DNA of 13,507 nucleotides, taken from the IMG/VR virus record IMGVR_UViG_2534681663_000023, positions 1 through 13,507 of that record; one strand, 5' to 3'. Below are positions 3,467 to 13,507 of the stretch, in pieces. The position numbers and the translations under genes are program-made. Numbering within the stretch: the stretch's first letter is position 1; the number at the start of each line of letters is the position of its first letter. The notes beneath the pieces were generated by a model, which saw only the letters and a program-made list of their open reading frames with translations, was not told where the DNA came from and made no database searches. This DNA comes from a virus. Lineage: Duplodnaviria > Heunggongvirae > Uroviricota > Caudoviricetes.

Positions 3467-3541
3467 TGGCGATGGTGGGTGGACTCGAACCACCGACCAG
3501 TTGATTAACAGTCAACCGCTCTACCACTGAGCTACACCATC
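3467..3541 (-). tRNA. tRNA-Asn (anticodon GTT), 75 nt with encoded CCA
   Basis: Manual fold of the minus strand: acceptor GATGGTG/CACCATC, D-arm GCTC-AGTGGTA-GAGC, anticodon stem GTTGA/TCAAC with loop CTGTTAA (U33, GTT, A37), variable TGGTC, T-arm GGTGG-TTCGAGT-CCACC, discriminator G, CCA. Confidence 0.85.
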
Positions 3542-5156: not shown

Positions 5157-5194
5157 GGGGAGCCCGCAGAATTCGGAAAAAATCGTACGCTAAG
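5157..5194 (+). repeat. Transposon terminal inverted repeat, tnpA-proximal (38 bp); contains the tnpA stop codon
   Basis: GGGG...ACGCTAAG architecture typical of Tn3-family ends; tnpA stop at 5190-5192 lies within it. Confidence 0.85.
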
Positions 5195-8156
5195 GTTTTC
5201 CGGGCATCCGTAAGGGCCGAAACTTCCCGTCTTCCAGTCTGCGGCTCTGCCGCCAGACGTAATCGCCGGTTAGGTTGATGTGCTCCCAGCCCAGCGGCGA
5301 CAGGAATTGCAGCAGCTCGCCGTCCACCGGCTTGCCGGCCTCGACCAACCCCTGGGTGGCGCGTTCCAGGTACACCGTGTTCCACAGCACGATAGCCGCC
5401 GTCACCAGGTTGAGGCCGCTGGCCCGGTAGCGCTGCTGCTCGAAGCTCCGATCCCTGATTTCCCCAAGGCGGTTGAAGAACACCGCCCTGGCCAGCGAGT
5501 TGCGCGCCTCACCTTTGTTCAGGCCGGCATGCACGCGGCGGCGCAGTTCAACACTTTGCAGCCAGTCCAGGATGAACAGCGTGCGCTCGATCCGGCCCAG
5601 CTCGCGCAGGGCCACGGCCAGTCCGTTCTGGCGCGGGTAGCTGCCGAGCTTGCGCAGCATCAGCGAGGCGGTGACGGTGCCCTGCTTGATCGAGCTGGCC
5701 AGGCGCAGGATGTCGTCCCAGTGGGCACGCACGTGCTTGATGTTCAGGGTGCCGCCGATCAGCGGGCGCAACGTCGGGTAGGCTTGCACGCCCTGCGGCA
5801 CGTACAGCTTGGTTTCGCCGAGGTCGCGGATGCGCGGCGCGAAGCGGAAGCCTAGCAGGTGCATCAGGGCAAAGACGTGATCGGTGAAGCCGGCCGTGTC
5901 GGTGTAGTGCTCCTCGATCCGCAGGTCGGACTCGTGGTACAGCAGGCCGTCGAGCACATAGGTGGAATCGCGGACGCCGACATTCACCACGCGGGTGCTG
6001 AACGGCGCGTACTGGTCGGAGATATGGGTATAGAACAGCCGTCCCGGCTCGCTACCGTACTTCGGGTTGACGTGCCCGGTGCTCTCGCCCCGGCCACCCG
6101 CGCGGAAGCGCTGGCCATCGGAGGATGAGGTCGTGCCGTCGCCCCAGTGGGCGGCAAAGGCGTGGCGATACTGGTGGTTGACCAGCTCGGCCAAGGCCGC
6201 CGAATAGGTTTCGTCGCGGATGTGCCAGGCTTGCAGCCAGGACAGCTTGGCGTAGGTCAGGCCGGGGCTCGACTCGGCCATCTTGGTCAGCCCGAGGTTG
6301 ATCGCATCACCGAGGATTGCGGACAGCAGCAACGTCCTGTCTTTGGCCTCGGCCCCGTCCTTCAAGTGGGTGAAGTGGCGGCTGAAGCCCGTCCAGTCGT
6401 CCACGTCCATCAGCAGTTCGGTGATCTTGATGCGCGGCAGTAACTGGCTGGTTTGGTCGATCAGCGCCTGCGCCCGATCCGGCACCGCCGCATCCAGCGG
6501 GGGGATTTTCAGCCCTGACTCGGTGAGGATGGCATCGGGCAGCTCGTTGTCCTTGGCCAGGCGGGTGACGGTGGCCAACTGCTCGTCCAGCAGCTGCAAA
6601 CGCTCTTCCAGGTACTGGTCGCTGTTCGGGTTGATCGCCAGGGGCAGGGCCTGCTCGCGCTTGAGTGCGGCGAACTTCTCGGCCGGCAGCAGGTAGTCGT
6701 CGAAGTCGCGGAACTGCCGCGAGCCCTTGACCCAGATGTCGCCGGAGCGCAGGGCGTTCTTCAGCTCGGACAGGGCGCAGATTTCGTAGAATTTCCGGTC
6801 GAGGCCTTCCGGGGTGATCACCAGCGGCTTCCAGCGCGGCTTGATGAAGGCCGTGGGTGCATCGGCCGGCACCTTGCGCAGGTTGTCGGCGTTCATCTCA
6901 CGCAGGGTCTGCACGGCTGCCAGCACGCCTTGCGCGGCCGGCGCGGCGCGCAGTTCCAGCACCTCCAGCAAGGCCGGCGTGTAACGGCGCAGGGTGGCGA
7001 AGTTCTCGCCGACCAGGTGCAGGTGGTCGAAGCCTTCCGGCCGGGCCAGCAGCTCGGCCTCGCTGACGCTCTCGGTGAACTCGTCCCAGGGAATCACCGC
7101 CTCGATGGCGGCATAGGGGTCGCTGCCGCTTTCCTTCGCTTCCAGCAGCGCCTGGCCGATCCTGGAGTACAGGCGCACCTTGTCGTTGATCGCCTTGCCC
7201 TGCTTCTGGAACTGCTGCTGATGCTTGTGCTTCGCGCCGCTGAACAGCTTGACCAGGATGCGGTCATGCAGATCGACCAGCTCATCGATCACGGTCGCGG
7301 TGCTCTCCAGCACCACGGCGGCCAGGGTCGCGTAGCGGCGCTGCGGCTCGAACTTACCGAGGGCTTTGGGCGTCATCTGCCCACCCTCGCGGGCCAGCTT
7401 GAGCAGGCGGTTCTGGTGGATGTGCCGGCCCAGGCCTTCGGGCAAGTCCACCAACTGAAATGTCTTCAGCCGCTCGATGTGTTCCAGCATGTGCCGAGAG
7501 TTGGGTTTCAGCGGTGCCTGGCGCAGCCAGGTCAACCAGGTGATGCTGCTGCCGGCCTTGAGCTTCAACAGCTCGTCCAGCTTGGCCCGATGCGAGTCCG
7601 TGAGTGGTTCGACCAGGGCGCGGTAGACCCGCCGATTGGCTCGCGCAATGGCTTCCGAGCAGGCCCGGTCAATCACGCTCAGCGCCGGCAGGATGCGTCG
7701 TTTCTGCCGTAGGCTCTCCAGGGCCTGACCGGCCAGCAGCAAGCCTTTGTCGGTCTGCTGGGCCAGCTCGGTTAGCTCGCGCACCAGGGCGCGGAAGTCG
7801 GACAGGCCGAACGGGGCCAGTTGCAGGTAGGTGCGCAGTTCCTGGGCATGCTCGCGACGGGTCACGTCGCGCTCGCCGTACTTTGCCCAGCTCGCCGGCT
7901 CGGCCTGGACTTGCTTCGCCACCCACAGGATGACCGGCTCGGGCAGCTCGCTGTCGGTTCCCAGCGCGTAACCGGGGTAGCGCAGCAGGCAGAGCTGCAC
8001 GGCGAAGCCGAGGCGGTTGGCGTCGCCGCGTCGCTGGCGGATCAGCGACAGGTCGGAGTCGTTGAAGGTGTAGTAGCGGATCAGGTCATCCTGGCTTTCC
8101 GGCAGCGCAAGCAGGGTGTCCCGCTCCGTGGCCGAGAGGATCAAGCGACGCGGCAT
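5190..8156 (-). CDS. tnpA: Tn3-family transposase TnpA (988 aa)
   Basis: Length and sequence ([44 protein letters not shown]...) match Tn21/Tn501-type TnpA as recalled; very GC-rich relative to its surroundings; terminates inside the terminal repeat. Confidence 0.95.
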
Positions 8157-8159
8157 GTG

Positions 8160-8720
8160 TCAGTCGTCCGTGCGGAGGTACTGGTAGAGGGTTTCCCGGC
8201 TGATGTTGAACTCGCGGGCAAGCTGCGCCTTGGGCTCGCCGGCCGTCGCTCGCTGCCGCAGGGTAGCAGCCTGCTCATCGGACAGGGCTTTCTTGCGGCC
8301 CCGGTACGCGCCACGCTGCTTGGCCAAGGCGATGCCCTCACGCTGCCGCTCGCGGATCAGGGCGCGCTCGAACTCAGCGAAGGCCCCCATCACCGACAGC
8401 ATCAGGTTGGCCATCGGCGAGTCCTCGCCAGTGAACACCAGGCCCTCCTTCAGGAACTCGATGCGCACGCCGCGCTGAGTCAGCTTCTGTACCAAGCGAC
8501 GCAGGTCATCGAGGTTGCGGGCCAGCCGATCCATGCTGTGCACCACCACTGTATCGCCTTCGCGGACGAAGCTCAGCAGCGCTTCGAGCTGGGGGCGCTG
8601 GGTGTCCTTGCCCGATGCCTTGTCGGTGAACACCTTGCTCACCTGGGTTTGTTCCAGCTGGCGTTCCGGGTTCTGGTCAAAGCTGCTGACCCGGACGTAG
8701 CCGATGCGGTGCCCCTGCAC
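8160..8720 (-). CDS. tnpR: Serine resolvase TnpR (186 aa)
   Basis: N-terminal serine-recombinase motif (IGYVRVSSFDQNPERQ), C-terminal HTH (ISRETLYQYLR); sits directly upstream of tnpA in the same orientation, as in the Tn21 subgroup. Confidence 0.95.
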   Translation of the reverse strand: MQGHRIGYVRVSSFDQNPERQLEQTQVSKVFTDKASGKDTQRPQLEALLSFVREGDTVVVHSMDRLARNLDDLRRLVQKLTQRGVRIEFLKEGLVFTGEDSPMANLMLSVMGAFAEFERALIRERQREGIALAKQRGAYRGRKKALSDEQAATLRQRATAGEPKAQLAREFNISRETLYQYLRTDD

Positions 8721-8724
8721 GATG

Positions 8725-8900
8725 TCTCCTTGGTTGAAGGCGGCTTAAGTGCACTTTCTGTTCCGTTGTGCCTCAAAGCCCATTTCTGTCAGGCTGAAAT
8801 CTATAACCTTCGCGGGCATGTGTCAAAAAATGGGAAAGCAGACTCTATTCTGACGAAGCGGCGCGGCCCTGCCTGACATCAAGTTAGGGTATAGCCTAGA
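8725..8900. promoter_or_regulatory. Putative res (resolution) site and tnpR promoter region
   Basis: Lies immediately upstream of tnpR and contains several TGTCA/TGACA half-site-like repeats (TGTCAGGCTGAAAT..., CATGTGTCA, CTGCCTGACATC). Exact subsite boundaries not determined. Confidence 0.5.
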
Positions 8901-9029
8901 TTGACATGCGCGATGCAACCCTTAACTTGCTTGCACCTATCGTTTCCATGCTAGCTTTATCGTAACGCTCAAGAAATTGGGCTTAATGCCGAAAACAATA
9001 AAATAAAACAGCCAACCCTTGAGGTTCTT

Positions 9030-10607
9030 ATGCGCCAGAATTTACCAGTGACGGGTCGAAACTTAGAACTCCCAAAAGATGCCAATATTCTTTCGACTAC
9101 CTCCCCTCAAAGCCATATCACGTACGTTAATCCTGACTTCATTAAAATCAGTGGTTTCACTGAGGAAGAACTATTAGGCCAGCCTCACAACATCGTAAGA
9201 CACCCAGATATGCCGCCTGCTGCATTTGAGCATATGTGGAGTACATTAAAATCTGGCCGCTCATGGATGGGGCTAGTAAAAAATCGCTGTAAAAATGGCG
9301 ACCACTATTGGGTAAGTGCTTATGTAACGCCAATAGCTAAGAATGGTTCGATTGTTGAATACCAGTCTGTAAGGACCAAGCCTGAACCTGAGCAGGTTTT
9401 GGCTGCGGAAAAATTATATGCTCAATTGAGAAGCGGGAAGGCCGCGAGGCCGAAATTGGCTGCTAGCTTTTCCGTGAAAATACTCTTGCTCATATGGGGT
9501 AGTATTATATCAAGCGCAATGGCTGCCGGCATGCTTACTGATACATCAATAAGCAGCTTATTGTTAGCCACTTTAATGTCAGGAAGCTTAAGCTCTGTTA
9601 GTGTTTTGGCTATTCTCTCTCCTCTTGGAAGACTGGTTGAAAGAGCCAGGAATATTTCCAATAACCCATTAAGTCAATCCCTCTACACTGGGCGCACCGA
9701 TGAGTTTGGCCAAATAGAGTTTGCTTTACGAATGATGCAAGCTGAAACAGGCGCCATAGTAGGTCGCATAGGTGATGCATCAAATCGGCTTAGCGAACAC
9801 ACCCGAGGCCTACTAAAGGATATTGAGTCAAGCAATGTACTTACAGTTGAGCAGCAGGCAGAGACAGATCAAATAGCAACGGCAGTAAACCAAATGGTGG
9901 CAAGCATTCAAGAGGTTGCGAGCAATGCACAGCATGCTGCAGATGCGGCCGGAAGAGCAGACACTGAGACGGCATCTGGCCAGCGTCTGGTAGCCCACAC
10001 AAGCCAGTCAATCACTGCCCTTGAAGGTGAAATTAGGCAAGCCACTCAGGTTATTCATGAGCTTGAAGGTCAAAGTAACGAGATATCAAAAGTTCTTGAC
10101 GTTATACGAGGGATCGCCGAGCAAACGAATTTGTTGGCACTCAACGCAGCAATTGAGGCCGCGCGTGCTGGTGAGCAGGGGCGTGGTTTTGCTGTTGTCG
10201 CCGATGAGGTTCGCAGTCTTGCTGCTCGCACACAGCAATCGACAACGGATATTCAAAGCATGATCAGCGCTCTACAAGAGCGAGCGCAATCCGCTGTTAC
10301 AGTCATGGAGCAAAGTAGTCGGCAAGCGCACACGAGTGTAGCTCACGCAGAGGAAGCAGCTACAGCTCTTGATGGAATTGGCCAACGCGTTAACGAAATT
10401 ACCGACATGAACGCGCAAATAGCGACTGCGGTCGAGCAGCAGGGAGCAGTAAGTGAAGACATAAACCGCAGTATTATCAATATACGCGATGCTGCTGATA
10501 CCAATGTACAGACCGGGCAGAATAATTTGCAAAGTGCGAAATCTGTCGCTCAGTTAACTAGCGCTCTGAGCGAACTGGCAAAACAGTTTTGGGAAAAACG
10601 AGGATAA
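9030..10607 (+). CDS. aer: Aer-like aerotaxis receptor (N-terminal PAS, membrane hairpin, methyl-accepting chemotaxis signalling domain), 525 aa; transposon passenger
   Basis: N-terminus closely resembles E. coli Aer PAS ([68 protein letters not shown]); hydrophobic hairpin near residues 150-195; conserved signalling core ([32 protein letters not shown]). Confidence 0.85.
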
Positions 10608-10626
10608 CGCTTTTCAGTATCTCGAC

Positions 10627-10661
10627 AGGGATAACTTACTTTACCATCGGTTATCCCTTTT
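10627..10661 (+). terminator. Rho-independent terminator after the chemoreceptor gene
   Basis: Hairpin AGGGATAAC-(14 nt)-GTTATCCCT followed by TTTT, about 20 bp after the stop codon. Confidence 0.5.
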
Positions 10662-10740
10662 AGCCGCACAAATTTTAGCCATGGCTTTTCAGGAAGTCAG
10701 GGCTATCAGAATGGCCTTAGAAAGCCTAGTCAAAGAGCTG

Positions 10741-12078
10741 TCACGAGAACACCGTTAGCTTAGCGTACGATTTTTTCCGAATTCTGCGGTTCCCCCATTT
10801 AGGCCACTTCAGACGTGGATGACGCAAGCTACCATCTGGCGTTTTCTCATGGCAGTGAACCTCAACGATGCGTCCACGATACTTCTCCTGATTGTTCCAG
10901 ATTTCATCCAGGTATTTATGCTTGATACCGCTGGCACGAACGATGACGCCGTTCTCCAGACGAATCACTATCTTGCCTAGCGTATGCGCAAATCCAGAAT
11001 CCGGATCGCCAGGCTCGAAGTCGATGATTTCACCGTCTTCTGAATCCTCGTCTTTCAGCTTCCACCAGCTGCGGGTACGTTTGAACTCGTAAACTGAATC
11101 CGGATCTTTGCCCATCTCTCCCTCTTCATTCTCGTCCAGTCGCTTCATGAAACGTTCGATGAAATCTTCGTGGCTATGGATGATGTAGAACGGATGAAGG
11201 TGGATATCTTGCGCATAATCTTCCACGCAAGTGTTGCGGAACAACGCCACCAGCATAGCCAGGCGCTCTTTCAGCTTCATACCGGTCTTCAGGTACTCTT
11301 TGCTTTTTGCTTGAGCACGCCACTCCGGTAAGAAGAAATCGAAAATGTGGTAAACGGCACCAATGGCTTTCACGTTCTTCTTACGAAGCGCCGACACTGA
11401 CTGGTTGAATGTACCTGCAGTGCCCTCTCCATCGAAGAAGATGTGATTGAAGCCGGAGAGTCTGCCCCGCTCCAGCATGGCTGGTTTAAGGTGATCGAGT
11501 GACGTAATCGGATTGCCGGTGCGCGTCAGGAAATTGACCTCACCCTCGTCCACGATGACTTCGCAGATAACCCGGAGACCATCGAGTTTGAGACTGCCGA
11601 TCATTGGCCACTTGGCCTTTGGATTTGGTTTAAATGGGTATTTGTCGCCTTTCTCCTTGTACGGAGACGCCAGCTGTACCTCAAACTTCGGAATTGGGTT
11701 TTCGAACACCTTGTTGCACAGGCTGATGCCGACACCGGCTTTCGGATCTTTCAGCAGGAAGCGACGAAACACGTCCTGCCCGTCAGCGCACATCGAGGCA
11801 ACGAGTGATTCGACAGCAGCAATAGCGATGTTCCCGGTCAGTTCGCGCGCTGCCAGCTTCTCCAGCAGATCTACTACCTTCTGGTCGCTGGGTACGGAAG
11901 TATCGAGTGGCTCGGCCACTTTGTACTTCTTCACACCGAATCGAATGAATGGATTGAGCATTAGCGAGACCATGCTCTGTTCAAATTCATCCAGATTGGC
12001 CAGCGCCTCTTTCTTGGCGTTGGTTCCCATCGTTTTAATAGCATCCAGCTTGTGCTTTAGGGCGATCAGTTTTTCCAT
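10741..12078 (-). CDS. T4-type ATP-dependent DNA ligase; 3' end interrupted by the transposon (last 18 codons of this ORF are read from the ATTTA duplication and terminal repeat)
   Basis: Nucleotidyltransferase motifs in order: I KLDGLR, III FFDGEG, IIIa YHIFDF, IV EGEMGKD, V WWKLK, VI LRHPRL. N-terminal region parallels T4 ligase as recalled (LTGNIAIAAV, ISLCNKVFENPIP, LASPYKEKG). GGAGG lies about 10 nt upstream of the ATG. Confidence 0.85.
   Translation of the reverse strand: MEKLIALKHKLDAIKTMGTNAKKEALANLDEFEQSMVSLMLNPFIRFGVKKYKVAEPLDTSVPSDQKVVDLLEKLAARELTGNIAIAAVESLVASMCADGQDVFRRFLLKDPKAGVGISLCNKVFENPIPKFEVQLASPYKEKGDKYPFKPNPKAKWPMIGSLKLDGLRVICEVIVDEGEVNFLTRTGNPITSLDHLKPAMLERGRLSGFNHIFFDGEGTAGTFNQSVSALRKKNVKAIGAVYHIFDFFLPEWRAQAKSKEYLKTGMKLKERLAMLVALFRNTCVEDYAQDIHLHPFYIIHSHEDFIERFMKRLDENEEGEMGKDPDSVYEFKRTRSWWKLKDEDSEDGEIIDFEPGDPDSGFAHTLGKIVIRLENGVIVRASGIKHKYLDEIWNNQEKYRGRIVEVHCHEKTPDGSLRHPRLKWPKWGNRRIRKKSYAKLTVFS
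10759..10796 (-). repeat. Transposon terminal inverted repeat, passenger-proximal (38 bp)
   Basis: Reverse complement matches the tnpA-proximal repeat at 35 of 38 positions; followed immediately by ATTTA. Confidence 0.85.
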
Positions 12079-12112
12079 TAGTGTTTAACCTCCATCGGTC
12101 GCTCGGGAGTTT

Positions 12113-12589
12113 TCATGTGTTTTCTTTGGTTGCTTCTTCAATGAGTGCCGCGTACACGTCAGTGACCGGCGCCAGTGAATCGGTGGGCTTGGTTTCGGAT
12201 TTAGCAGGTTCTGTTTTCTTCGTGCGATGAATAAGACTGTCAATTGTCGCGGTGTTTCGCTTCCGGGGGAGCGTTCTGGCATGGTCGTTTTGCTCTTCCA
12301 CTTCTTTGATAAGTGAAGACATATCGATGAAGTAGAGCTGTTCGTCTTTGCGGATCTCTTCGACCATCATTTTCAGTGCCTGACATTTACCAGCAGCAAT
12401 AGCCGCAGCGCAGGACTGGAACGATGTAGCCGGGAGACGTTTTTCTTTATAGGCGAGGATCGTGTGTTGGCAGACTGTATAGCTGCAATGAGCCTCATGG
12501 CCGTTGAGCTTCACTTCCGGGCAGCGCAGCGAATAACCGTTGTTTCCGGAGATAGACGGGATTTTCGACAAATCTGTTCTTGTGGACAT
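12113..12589 (-). CDS. Hypothetical Cys/His-rich protein (158 aa), possible zinc-binding; directly upstream of the ligase
   Basis: ORF track; cluster RCPEVKLNGHEAHCSYTVCQH...CAAAIAAGKC; 34-bp gap to the ligase start, same strand. No family recognised. Confidence 0.45.
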   Translation of the reverse strand: MSTRTDLSKIPSISGNNGYSLRCPEVKLNGHEAHCSYTVCQHTILAYKEKRLPATSFQSCAAAIAAGKCQALKMMVEEIRKDEQLYFIDMSSLIKEVEEQNDHARTLPRKRNTATIDSLIHRTKKTEPAKSETKPTDSLAPVTDVYAALIEEATKENT

Positions 12590-12636
12590 GCTTCTAACCG
12601 TAATCTTGTACTTACTTATTAATCGCAGTTTAAAGA

Positions 12637-12653
12637 AGCCCCACGAGGGGGCT
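12637..12653. other. Short GC hairpin (AGCCCC-ACGAG-GGGGCT) between the upstream gene and the 158-aa gene
   Basis: Read from the sequence; no convincing U-run on the minus strand, so it may be an attenuator or structural element rather than a terminator. Confidence 0.25.
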
Positions 12654-12670
12654 AAATGTTTTATCGAGGC

Positions 12671-13069
12671 TTACCAGGTCGCCCAGCCAGTCATTTTGTC
12701 CTGAGCAGCTTCGAACCGGTATGGGTCCAGTAAATCGTTGGTACGATGAACGGCGTAGGATTTGGCTTCTTGTTTAATCATGGGTAATTCGTTGGCCAGA
12801 CGAGCCACTTGCCCTGCAAAACTGGCGAGTACTCCGTCACATGCCTGACCCGCGTCGACAATGATGCGCACCAGGTCTAAGTCGCTGCGGCACATATCGC
12901 AGATAATGCCGTATTCCACCTCACGAATGCGCTCAACGGCTTTTTTGATATCGCCACTGACCACCAATTCCAGCAAACCAGGTGGAGTTGTCAGATCTGT
13001 TACGCGCTCGGTAACTTCAGACTGTTCGACAATACTCAGGAACGCCGCGATGGACGGGTCATCCGCCAC
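12671..13069 (-). CDS. Hypothetical protein, probably the C-terminal part of a larger gene truncated by the IS3-family insertion
   Basis: The annotated start is GTG with no clear RBS; the frame stays open for 19 more codons upstream (ERFEDIVDATLRTLKVRAG...) right up to the IS boundary at 13127. No family recognised. Confidence 0.4.
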   Translation of the reverse strand: MADDPSIAAFLSIVEQSEVTERVTDLTTPPGLLELVVSGDIKKAVERIREVEYGIICDMCRSDLDLVRIIVDAGQACDGVLASFAGQVARLANELPMIKQEAKSYAVHRTNDLLDPYRFEAAQDKMTGWATW

Positions 13070-13126
13070 ACCAGCTCTGACTTTGAGCGTGCGAAGAGTT
13101 GCGTCGACAATATCCTCAAACCGTTC

Positions 13127-13507
13127 TGAACCGCCCCGGAAATCCTGGAGACTAAACTCCCTGAGAAAGAGGTAAACAGGATGACTAAAAATACTCGTTT
13201 TTCCCCCGAAGTCCGTCAGCGGGCGATTCGTATGGTTCTGGAAAGTCAGGATGAATATGACTCACAGTGGGCGGCAATTTGTTCCATTGCCCCAAAGATT
13301 GGCTGTACGCCGGAGACTCTGCGTGTCTGGGTTCGCCAGCATGAGCGGGATACCGGGGGCGGTGATGGTGGGCTCACCAGCGCTGAACGTCAGCGTCTGA
13401 AAGAGCTGGAACGTGAAAATCGTGAACTGCGCCGCAGTAACGATATCCTTCGCCAGGCTTCCGCTTATTTTGCGAAGGCGGAGTTCGACCGCCTCTGGAA
13501 AAAATGA
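13127..13507 (+). mobile_element. IS3-family insertion sequence (IS629/IS1203-like), left end; continues beyond the window
   Basis: Terminal sequence TGAACCGCCCCGGAAATCCTGGAG... followed about 55 bp later by an OrfA-type gene; matches the IS629-like left end as recalled. Confidence 0.8.
13181..13507 (+). CDS. IS3-family transposase OrfA (108 aa, HTH plus leucine zipper)
   Basis: [23 protein letters not shown]...[34 protein letters not shown] is the typical IS3 OrfA; ends at an A6 run before TGA, consistent with the programmed -1 frameshift site into OrfB, which lies outside the window. Confidence 0.9.

What the first reader, a model, noticed from the sequence alone, without database searches (positions are those of the whole stretch)
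12113..12589. Cys/His-rich 158-aa protein immediately upstream of the ligase
A cluster of Cys and His residues (C-x8-H-x2-H-C-x4-C-x-H, then two further Cys) suggests a metal-binding fold. I cannot assign it to a known family, and I know of no canonical partner of T4-type ligases resembling it.
Basis: inference. Interest (0 to 1): 0.5.

Follow-up and report, generated by a model that had tools for sequence, protein, structure and literature searches.

The report
Conserved four-cysteine protein paired with phage ligase
The ORF is a real, strongly conserved small protein of SSU5-type phage-plasmids with four invariant cysteines, a confidently predicted fold that matches no solved structure, and a gene almost always found directly in front of a DNA ligase gene; its function is still unknown.

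Summary
The 158-aa ORF (12113-12589, minus strand) is real. It lies 34 nt upstream of a T4-type ATP-dependent ligase and equals SSU5_043 of Salmonella phage SSU5. It is under purifying selection (dN/dS about 0.15).

H31, H34 and C35 lie in a clade-specific 5-residue insertion, and H42 is kept in about 55% of relatives. The real signature is four invariant cysteines (C23, C40, C60, C69) plus E78, seen in 147 diverse relatives.

In 34 lineages of about 100-120 kb phages and phage-plasmids, 30 have the gene plus a ligase, 3 have neither, 1 has the gene alone and none has the ligase alone. The genes often overlap by 4 nt. Two lineages carry an NAD-dependent LigA in the same slot.

Best guess, at low confidence: a metal-binding adaptor of the nick-sealing part of the replication module. 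This is an uncharacterised family of moderate interest.

The parts
12113..12589 (-). Complete ORF of the four-cysteine protein (158 aa plus stop); orthologue of SSU5_043; member of PHROG 5055 and the wider PHROG 4558
   Evidence: dN/dS about 0.15
12272..12556 (-). Folded N-terminal Cys4 domain (residues 12-106). It consists of a beta-hairpin (20-28/31-36) and helices 37-48, 58-66, 70-81 and 90-106. It contains the near-invariant S12, N17, Y37, A71, M74 and G82, and the invariant E78.
   Evidence: AlphaFold2 model with a 147-sequence alignment, pLDDT 94-98 over this stretch; conservation
12521..12523 (-). Codon of invariant Cys23 (in beta-strand 1)
12470..12472 (-). Codon of invariant Cys40 (first turn of helix 1); H42, two residues on, is only about 55% conserved
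12410..12412 (-). Codon of invariant Cys60 (first turn of helix 2)
12383..12385 (-). Codon of invariant Cys69 (N-cap of helix 3; followed by Pro in about half of the family)
12485..12499 (-). SSU5-clade-specific 5-residue insertion region (about N29-A33, containing H31, with H34/C35 adjacent).
   Evidence: Gapped in about 125 of 133 relatives
12164..12271 (-). Variable, basic, low-complexity linker (residues 107-142), rich in A/K/E/S/P across the family
   Evidence: pLDDT 64-73; composition and charge; relaxed selection, omega 0.26-0.6
12122..12163 (-). Conserved C-terminal amphipathic helix motif (TDVYAALIEEATKE; family consensus [GDN][DN][YFM]A[DA][AV][IV]N); candidate docking motif
   Evidence: the same motif ends a neighbouring ORF in L028
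12079..12112 (-). 34-nt spacer between the ORF stop and the ligase start, with a GGAGG Shine-Dalgarno sequence at 12089-12093. In many relatives the two genes overlap by 4 nt instead.
10741..12078 (-). T4-type ATP-dependent DNA ligase, the conserved downstream partner gene. In this window its last codons are replaced by transposon-end sequence.
12671..13069 (-). Remnant (132-aa GTG ORF; homology runs to about 13100) of the conserved upstream neighbour, the SSU5_042 family, which ends in a ...GWATW C-terminal tail. It is 5'-truncated here by an IS3 insertion.
12637..12653 (.). GC-rich hairpin (AGCCCC-ACGAG-GGGGCT) between the upstream gene's stop and the ORF's start; terminator-like

Best explanation
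The ORF encodes a small accessory protein of the phage replication module that works in the same process as the DNA ligase encoded directly downstream, namely sealing of nicks and Okazaki fragments.

Proposed mechanism. A roughly 95-residue N-terminal domain is held together by a metal centre liganded by four invariant cysteines (Zn2+ or an Fe-S cluster). This domain recognises a partner or DNA. A flexible basic linker and a short conserved amphipathic helix act as tethers or docking motifs. Together they connect ligation to other replication proteins, including the WGR-domain or SSU5_042-type proteins encoded just upstream.

Shown: the gene is real and under purifying selection; it has the Cys4 signature; a compact fold is confidently predicted; it has no relatives of known function; and it is linked to a ligase gene by strong co-occurrence and frequent gene overlap, consistent with translational coupling.

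Inferred: metal binding, the adaptor role, and any physical or functional link with the ligase.
For: 1. Co-occurrence. In a primase-anchored sample of 34 evaluable lineages (primases clustered at 70% identity), 30 have the 4-Cys gene plus a ligase, 3 have neither (primase is followed directly by CobT/CobS/DnaE), 1 has the 4-Cys gene alone and 0 have the ligase alone. My own Fisher test gives p of about 7e-4, not corrected for phylogeny.

2. Adjacency. The ligase start lies within 35 nt of the 4-Cys stop in about 19 of 30 lineages, often as a 4-nt ATGA-type overlap.

3. Linkage to the ligase rather than the primase. In a Vibrio element, 4 kb of cargo genes separate the primase from the WGR/4-Cys/ligase trio, and the trio stays intact.

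4. The pairing survives a change of ligase type. Two lineages (L014/L015/L139 and L029) have an NAD-dependent LigA-type ligase in the same slot, 2-10 nt after the 4-Cys stop.

5. Neighbourhood. The upstream neighbour is a WGR-domain protein in several lineages. WGR is the DNA-break-sensing domain of PARPs (established knowledge).

6. Architecture. The protein has a high-confidence folded domain, a disordered basic linker and conserved short helices. The C-terminal motif recurs on a different adjacent protein in L028, as expected for a portable docking motif.

7. Four invariant Cys in 147 sequences.
Against: - The whole helicase, primase, 4-Cys, ligase, CobT/CobS, DnaE block is syntenic across the lineage. 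Adjacency may therefore reflect inherited gene order rather than function.
- The 4-Cys protein keeps all its motifs when an ATP ligase is replaced by a structurally different LigA. This argues against a specific ligase-binding surface.
- One lineage (L028) has the gene with no ligase within 4.6 kb.
- T4-type ligases work alone in T4 and T7 (established knowledge), and about 1500 phage records carry them, most without this protein.
- No complex prediction, metal analysis or DNA-binding evidence is available.
- The model's coordinates could not be inspected, so the clustering of the four Cys is inferred from secondary-structure positions only.
Confidence: 0.35

Rival explanations
1. It is a general replisome or primosome organiser (a hub protein) that is not specific to ligation. 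It would dock several replication proteins, for example those with the shared [W/Y/F]-G-x-[W/F] C-terminal tails, SSB, helicase or DnaE. It would sit next to the ligase only because the operon order is conserved.
For: - It always lies between the helicase-primase genes and the ligase.
- The proteins encoded just upstream almost always end in a common aromatic tail. SSU5_076, in a different DNA-metabolism cluster, has the same tail.
- Its motifs are unchanged after the ATP-to-NAD ligase swap.
- It persists without a nearby ligase in L028.
Against: - The gene is lost together with the ligase in three lineages that keep helicase, primase, CobT/S and DnaE.
- It stays with the ligase, not the primase, when cargo is inserted.
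- It is present in lineages with no tail-bearing upstream ORF (L010, L014, L016).
Confidence: 0.25
2. It is a sequence-specific DNA-binding regulator or origin-binding protein (a zinc-finger-like transcription or replication-initiation factor) for the replication module.
For: The domain is small, Cys-rich and net basic (median charge +3), with a basic linker. Many small phage Cys4 proteins, such as Ogr/Delta and Com, are regulators (established knowledge).
Against: - It has no CxxC knuckles and no HTH.
- It has no Pfam or fold similarity to any DNA-binding domain.
- Nothing links it to a conserved DNA site.
- Overlapping genes with an enzyme gene (implied translational coupling) are unusual for a regulator.
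Confidence: 0.12
3. It is an anti-defence or host-takeover protein, for example an inhibitor of a host nuclease, of an NAD-depleting system or of a host replication protein. It would simply reside in the early/replication region.
For: Small lineage-restricted phage proteins of unknown fold are often anti-defence factors (established knowledge). The adjacent WGR and ligase genes could counter nicking-type defences.
Against: - It has been conserved at a fixed position from Enterobacteriaceae to Pseudomonas, Vibrio and Rhizobium phages. This is unlike fast-turnover anti-defence genes.
- Purifying selection on the N-domain is strong.
- There is no PADLOC match.
Confidence: 0.08
4. It is a chance ORF, or the Cys/His pattern has no functional meaning.
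For: The ATG has only a weak Shine-Dalgarno sequence. The His-rich part of the motif is not conserved.
Against: There are 191 representative homologues at E<=1e-3. dN/dS is about 0.15. The AlphaFold model reaches pLDDT 86. Four Cys are invariant. The exact protein is seen on 223 contigs.
Confidence: 0.01

Closest known systems
PHROG 5055 / PHROG 4558 (phage protein families, 'unknown function'); SSU5_043, Pseudomonas phage nickie gp107, Rhizobium phage RHph_N1_10 EVB77_073
   Same: Direct sequence membership (E=4.5e-92 and 1.7e-7). The position between primase and ligase is the same.
   Different: These entries carry no functional annotation, so membership says nothing about function.
PARP-type zinc finger (PF00645) of DNA ligase III and PARP1, together with the PARP WGR domain, as DNA-nick sensors
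   Same: A small Cys-rich, presumably metal-binding module, a WGR-domain protein and a DNA ligase occur together as consecutive genes. This resembles the domain combination of eukaryotic nick-sensing and nick-sealing proteins, so it may work like them.
   Different: - The CxxC...HxxC motif is absent.
- There is no Pfam hit and no fold match.
- The components are separate polypeptides.
- In SSU5 itself the upstream protein is not recognisably WGR.
C-terminal-tail docking systems of replisomes (E. coli SSB ...DDDIPF; T7 gp2.5 and gp4 acidic tails ending in Phe)
   Same: The protein has a folded domain plus a flexible linker plus a short conserved terminal motif. Neighbouring proteins share a C-terminal aromatic tail, [WYF]-G-x-[WF].
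   Different: There is no OB fold, the motifs are different, and no interaction has been demonstrated.
Small phage or bacterial Cys4 zinc proteins (DksA/TraR, Ogr/Delta, Com, YacG) and WhiB-like Fe-S proteins
   Same: Small size and four conserved cysteines.
   Different: Those families use paired CxxC or CxxC-x5-C knuckles. Here the four Cys are spaced C-x(11-16)-C-x(17-19)-C-x8-C, each on a different secondary-structure element. There is no sequence or fold similarity.
T4 gp30 / T7 gp1.3 ATP-dependent ligases
   Same: The downstream gene is a T4-type ligase, about 26% identical to T4 ligase over 90% of its length.
   Different: Those ligases have no such upstream partner and act alone (established knowledge).

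Membership tests
PHROG 5055 / 4558 (uncharacterised phage family) | Significant full-length match to the family profile | tested here: met
   phrog_5055 E=4.5e-92 over residues 1-158; phrog_4558 E=1.7e-7 over residues 12-100; 60-61 of 61 diverse relatives hit both
PHROG 5055 / 4558 (uncharacterised phage family) | Four-cysteine signature C-x(11-16)-C-x(17-19)-C-x8-C plus the M-x3-E (E78) motif and a C-terminal YAxxIN-type helix (signature derived here) | tested here: met
   C23, C40, C60, C69 and E78 are present; DVYAALIEE at residues 144-152
PARP-type zinc finger (zf-PARP, PF00645; nick sensor of Lig3/PARP1) | C-x2-C-x(28-30)-H-x2-C zinc ligands and a match to the Pfam profile | tested here: not met
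   No CxxC or HxxC pair in the sequence. No Pfam hit for the window protein or for 61 relatives.
PARP-type zinc finger (zf-PARP, PF00645; nick sensor of Lig3/PARP1) | zf-PARP fold | tested here: not met
DksA/TraR-type C4 zinc finger | CxxC-x17-CxxC motif and profile match | tested here: not met
   Motif absent. No Pfam or NCBIfam hit for this ORF. The weak DksA-like hit belongs to the upstream remnant ORF and is far below the cut-off.
WhiB-like [4Fe-4S] proteins | C-x(14-22)-C-x2-C-x5-C motif and profile match | tested here: not met
   Spacing differs; no Pfam hit
Metal-binding protein in general (Zn or Fe-S) | Bound metal; four ligands converging in space | not testable with these tools
   The four Cys are invariant and lie in a strand or at helix N-termini.
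Ligase accessory factor (functional class) | Genomic co-occurrence and operon linkage with a ligase | tested here: met
   30 both, 3 neither, 1 4-Cys only, 0 ligase only among 34 lineages; overlapping or closely spaced genes
Ligase accessory factor (functional class) | Physical interaction with, or stimulation of, the ligase | not testable with these tools
   No multimer prediction or assay was available. Retention across the ATP/NAD ligase swap argues against a ligase-type-specific interface.
ATP-dependent DNA ligase (downstream neighbour, context only) | Nucleotidyltransferase domain with KxDG motif I | tested here: met
   PF01068 E=5.7e-12; phrog_114 E=1.6e-122; 'SLKLDGLRV' present

The most novel reading that the evidence does not exclude
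The 4-Cys protein is the founding member of a new class of ligase-coupled replication hub. An Fe-S or Zn domain of novel fold would read the shared [W/Y/F]-G-x-[W/F]-COOH tails of WGR-type break-binding proteins, and through its own docking helices would deliver a ligase of either cofactor type to nicks. This would be a split, phage-encoded functional analogue of the eukaryotic PARP/Lig3 nick-sensing apparatus.
Probability: 0.15. Interest if true: 0.75.

Novelty: categorically new. Interest (0 to 1): 0.45.

Why it matters
SSU5-type phage-plasmids are common in clinical E. coli, Salmonella and Klebsiella and carry resistance genes. Their replication machinery (DnaE, CobT/CobS-like ATPases, DnaB, DnaG, ligase) is poorly understood.

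A strictly conserved Cys4 protein of unmatched fold that travels with the ligase, even when the ligase type is exchanged, points to an unrecognised component of lagging-strand or nick processing in a large phage lineage. It also gives a small, tractable target for biochemistry.

If the link to WGR-domain proteins and the shared aromatic C-terminal tails holds, it would reveal a new protein-docking code in phage replisomes. If not, this remains one of many conserved phage proteins of unknown function.

Tried and rejected
- **Family and sequence searches.** Pfam, NCBIfam and PADLOC scans of the protein and of 61 relatives gave nothing consistent. PDB sequence searches with two profiles gave 0 hits at E<=10.
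- **First structure model.** AlphaFold with only 20 close homologues was poor (pLDDT 45) and was discarded in favour of the 147-sequence model.
- **Locus retrieval.** The search for related loci with the very diverse alignment failed for lack of a conserved stretch; sub-alignments worked. Genome and metagenome scans added few loci.
- **WGR versus SSU5_042.** A profile-profile comparison of WGR-type and SSU5_042-type upstream proteins showed no detectable homology.
- **Domain fusions.** Longer family members show none.
- **Literature.** Searches for SSU5, nickie, RHEph10 and WGR plus ligase found no paper that discusses this protein. All database names are "hypothetical protein".
- **Beta-clamp-binding motif.** I considered reading 'QLYF' (residues 84-87) as one. 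It lies inside the confidently folded domain, so I rejected it.
- **Apparent ligase-only loci.** L141, L145 and L149 turned out on inspection to have a diverged 4-Cys gene that the first HMM missed.

Full report
**Observation.** The window carries part of an SSU5/pHCM2-type phage-plasmid of E. coli. The region 10796-13100 is 99-100% identical to many E. coli plasmids of about 85-325 kb, most around 100-115 kb. The gene neighbourhood matches Salmonella phage SSU5. The ORF at 12113-12589 on the minus strand encodes 158 aa and is the orthologue of SSU5_043, at 92% identity. It lies 34 nt upstream of a 445-aa T4-type ATP-dependent ligase at 10741-12078, which has a PF01068 match and a KLDG motif and is about 26% identical to T4 ligase over 90% of its length. 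The Cys/His positions are C23, H31, H34, C35, C40, H42, C60 and C69.

**Is it real?** Yes.
- Close homologues are abundant; the exact protein is seen on 223 contigs.
- An exhaustive profile search found 191 representatives at E<=1e-3.
- dN/dS against SSU5-like homologues is about 0.15, falling to 0.05-0.12 for residues 1-100 and rising to 0.26-0.6 for the tail.

**What is conserved.** I aligned 133-147 diverse relatives with a mean column identity of 14%.
- The invariant positions are C23, C40, C60, C69 and E78.
- S12, N17, Y37, A71, M74 and G82 are nearly invariant.
- H31, H34 and C35 sit in a 5-residue insertion found only in the SSU5 clade.
- H42 is His in only 74 of 133 sequences.
- The true signature is therefore Cys4 with spacing C-x(11-16)-C-x(17-19)-C-x8-C and no CxxC knuckles.

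After the N-terminal domain comes a variable, A/K/E/S/P-rich, net-basic linker. A conserved amphipathic helix follows (DVYAALIEE here; family consensus [GDN][DN][YFM]A[DA][AV][IV]N). Longer relatives add a YxRGW motif and a basic C-terminal ...EMARRM... helix.

**Structure.** With 20 close homologues AlphaFold2 gave pLDDT 45. With the 147-sequence alignment it gave pLDDT 86.4 and pTM 0.65, with residues 11-100 at 94-98. The model has a beta-hairpin (20-28/31-36) followed by helices 37-48, 58-66, 70-81 and 90-106. C23 lies in the first strand. C40 and C60 lie in the first turns of helices 1 and 2, and C69 caps helix 3. These placements are typical of metal ligands. I could not inspect coordinates, so convergence of the four thiols is an inference. 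Whether the metal is Zn or an Fe-S cluster cannot be decided. The wide spacing and the frequent Cys-Pro after C69 are at most weak hints towards Fe-S.

**Comparison with known families.**
- There is no Pfam, NCBIfam or PADLOC match for the protein or for 61 relatives.
- There is no PDB sequence match with two profiles.
- The family equals PHROG 5055 plus PHROG 4558, both labelled "unknown function".
- Every source calls it a hypothetical protein, and I found no paper that discusses it.

**Genomic context.** The order DnaB-like helicase, DnaG-like primase, one or more small proteins, the 4-Cys protein, ligase, then CobT/CobS-like ATPases and DnaE is shared by:
- SSU5;
- Pseudomonas phage nickie, gp107 before ligase gp106;
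- Rhizobium phage RHph_N1_10, where EVB77_073 is a diverged member scoring 33 bits against the family HMM;
- Vibrio and Xenorhabdus elements;
- many IMG/VR contigs.

Among 110 loci found through the 4-Cys protein (20 clusters at 60% identity), a ligase follows directly, or after one small ORF, in 18 of 19 evaluable clusters.

I then took an independent sample anchored on the primase. Three apparent "ligase-only" loci turned out on manual inspection to contain a diverged 4-Cys gene. After that correction, the 34 evaluable primase clusters divide as follows:

| State | Primase clusters |
|---|---|
| 4-Cys gene plus ligase | 30 |
| Neither (primase runs straight into CobT/CobS/DnaE) | 3 |
| 4-Cys gene alone (L028, where Rep3/ParA genes occupy the slot) | 1 |
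| Ligase alone | 0 |

The three "neither" loci are L140, L151 and L163, and L028 is described. The association gives a Fisher p of about 7e-4 by my own calculation from these counts, but the lineages are not independent.

Three further details matter.
- The two genes overlap by 4 nt or lie within 35 nt of each other in about 19 of 30 clusters.
- In a Vibrio element, 4 kb of cargo genes separate the primase from the WGR/4-Cys/ligase trio, and the trio stays contiguous with overlapping stops and starts.
- In two lineages the gene that follows is an NAD-dependent LigA-type ligase (PF01653, PF03120, HhH, BRCT) rather than an ATP-dependent ligase. It starts 2-10 nt after the 4-Cys stop.

So the pairing is with "a ligase", not with one ligase family. 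Conversely, T4-type ligases occur in about 1500 phage records, whereas my three family queries matched only 27: 11 SSU5-like, 6 nickie-like and 10 Rhizobium phages. This is a lineage-specific partner, not a general one.

**Upstream neighbours.** The gene or genes between the primase and the 4-Cys gene vary. Some lineages have a roughly 260-aa protein (SSU5_042 type). Others have WGR-domain proteins of about 150-180 aa (PF05406, E=4.7e-13 in L024; annotated as WGR in the Rhizobium phage; a weak WGR hit in Vibrio). The two types are not detectably homologous. Even so, nearly all of them end in the same C-terminal tail, [W/Y/F]-G/A-x-[W/F]-COOH. Examples are WGSW, WGAW, WGMF, FGRF and, in SSU5, GWATW. 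One contig has four consecutive ORFs with this tail. SSU5_076, which lies beside SbcCD-like and RNase H-like genes, has the same ...TWATW end. This looks like a docking code comparable to SSB or T7 gp2.5 tails. That comparison rests on established knowledge of those systems, and the receptor here is unknown.

**Interpretation.** The most economical reading is that the 4-Cys protein is a metal-stabilised accessory or adaptor protein of the nick-sealing part of this lineage's replication module. A folded domain would recognise DNA or a partner, and flexible motif-bearing tails would provide tethering. The gene is co-expressed with the ligase and is gained or lost with it.

The combination of a WGR protein, a Cys-rich module and a ligase recalls the PARP/Lig3 nick-sensing logic. 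Membership of the zf-PARP family was tested and not met, in motif, profile and fold.

The main counter-arguments are these:
- The block may simply be inherited in this order.
- The protein's motifs are indifferent to the ATP/NAD ligase swap.
- L028 has the gene with no nearby ligase.

I therefore give the ligase-accessory model 0.35 and a more general replisome-hub model 0.25. A regulator model gets 0.12, an anti-defence model 0.08 and a chance ORF 0.01.

**Novelty and interest.** No known family or fold could be assigned, so at the family level the protein lies outside every characterised kind. Conserved phage proteins of unknown function are common, however, and nothing here is mechanistically demonstrated. 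Interest is moderate (0.45). It comes mainly from the robust ligase coupling across cofactor types, the unmatched but confidently predicted fold, and the associated C-terminal-tail motif network.

**State of the locus in this window.** The 4-Cys gene is intact, but both neighbours are damaged by mobile elements. A Tn3-family (Tn1721/Tn1722-like) transposon with 38-bp inverted repeats at 5157-5194 and 10759-10796 replaces the last codons of the ligase. An IS3 copy, whose orfA starts at 13181, truncates the SSU5_042 homologue.

Noticed in passing
window 5157-10796: A Tn3-family transposon resembling Tn1721/Tn1722. It carries tnpA (5190-8156, minus), a resolvase (8160-8720, minus) and a PAS-HAMP-MCP chemoreceptor-like gene (9030-10607, plus), bounded by 38-bp inverted repeats at 5157-5194 and 10759-10796. 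It is inserted in the 3' end of the ligase gene, so the ligase ends ...[22 protein letters not shown] instead of ...KWPKCLRDTEDRIGDKD as in SSU5.
   Followed up: partly
window 12671-13507: An IS3 copy (orfA at 13181-13507, plus) truncates the 5' part of the SSU5_042 homologue. Only the C-terminal half or so remains (homology from about 13100; 132-aa GTG ORF at 12671-13069).
   Followed up: partly
L002 7125-7919, L110 3484-4295, L120 8113-10518 and other loci; SSU5_076 at NC_018843 66436-67182: The proteins encoded between the primase and the 4-Cys gene are unrelated in sequence (WGR-domain or SSU5_042 type). Nearly all end in a shared C-terminal tail, [W/Y/F]-G/A-x-[W/F]-COOH (WGSW, WGAW, WGMF, FGRF, GWATW). 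One contig has four such ORFs in a row. SSU5_076, in another DNA-metabolism cluster, has the same tail. This may be a docking motif for an unknown hub.
   Followed up: partly
L014/L015 6582-8450, L139 8720-10588, L029 5611-7518: In two lineages of the same phage group the ATP-dependent ligase is replaced, in the same slot, by an NAD-dependent LigA-type ligase of about 620 aa (adenylation, OB, HhH and BRCT domains).
   Followed up: yes
L140, L151, L163 (downstream of the primase): Three related contigs lack the whole tail-protein/4-Cys/ligase cassette. The primase is followed directly by CobT-like, CobS-like and DnaE genes. A roughly 190-aa Cys-rich ORF precedes DnaE in L140 and L151.
   Followed up: partly
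L028 5117-5860 (C-terminal part): The ORF after the 4-Cys gene in this high-GC contig ends with almost the same helix motif as the 4-Cys protein itself (AGIDLGSLINQQLQE versus AGIDLGSLINQELEG). This suggests the motif is portable. The contig has Rep3- and ParA-type plasmid genes where the ligase normally sits.
   Followed up: no
window 12637-12653: A GC-rich hairpin (6-bp stem, 5 G-C pairs) lies between the stop of the upstream gene and the start of the 4-Cys ORF. It could be a terminator or attenuator separating the two genes.
   Followed up: no
window 3467-3541 and 854-1957: A tRNA-Asn (GTT) gene lies on the minus strand and a tyrosine-recombinase ORF lies downstream of the replication genes, as in other SSU5-like plasmids.
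   Followed up: no
NC_018843 (SSU5) proteins 043, 052, 057, 073: Several SSU5 replication and repair proteins end in similar acidic amphipathic helices: the 4-Cys protein, DnaE, the annotated SSB and the metallophosphoesterase (...VYAALIEEA, ...LEAILAEVAE, ...LDDLLAELDAL, ...CQEILTEAES). This may be coincidence or a second shared docking motif.
   Followed up: no
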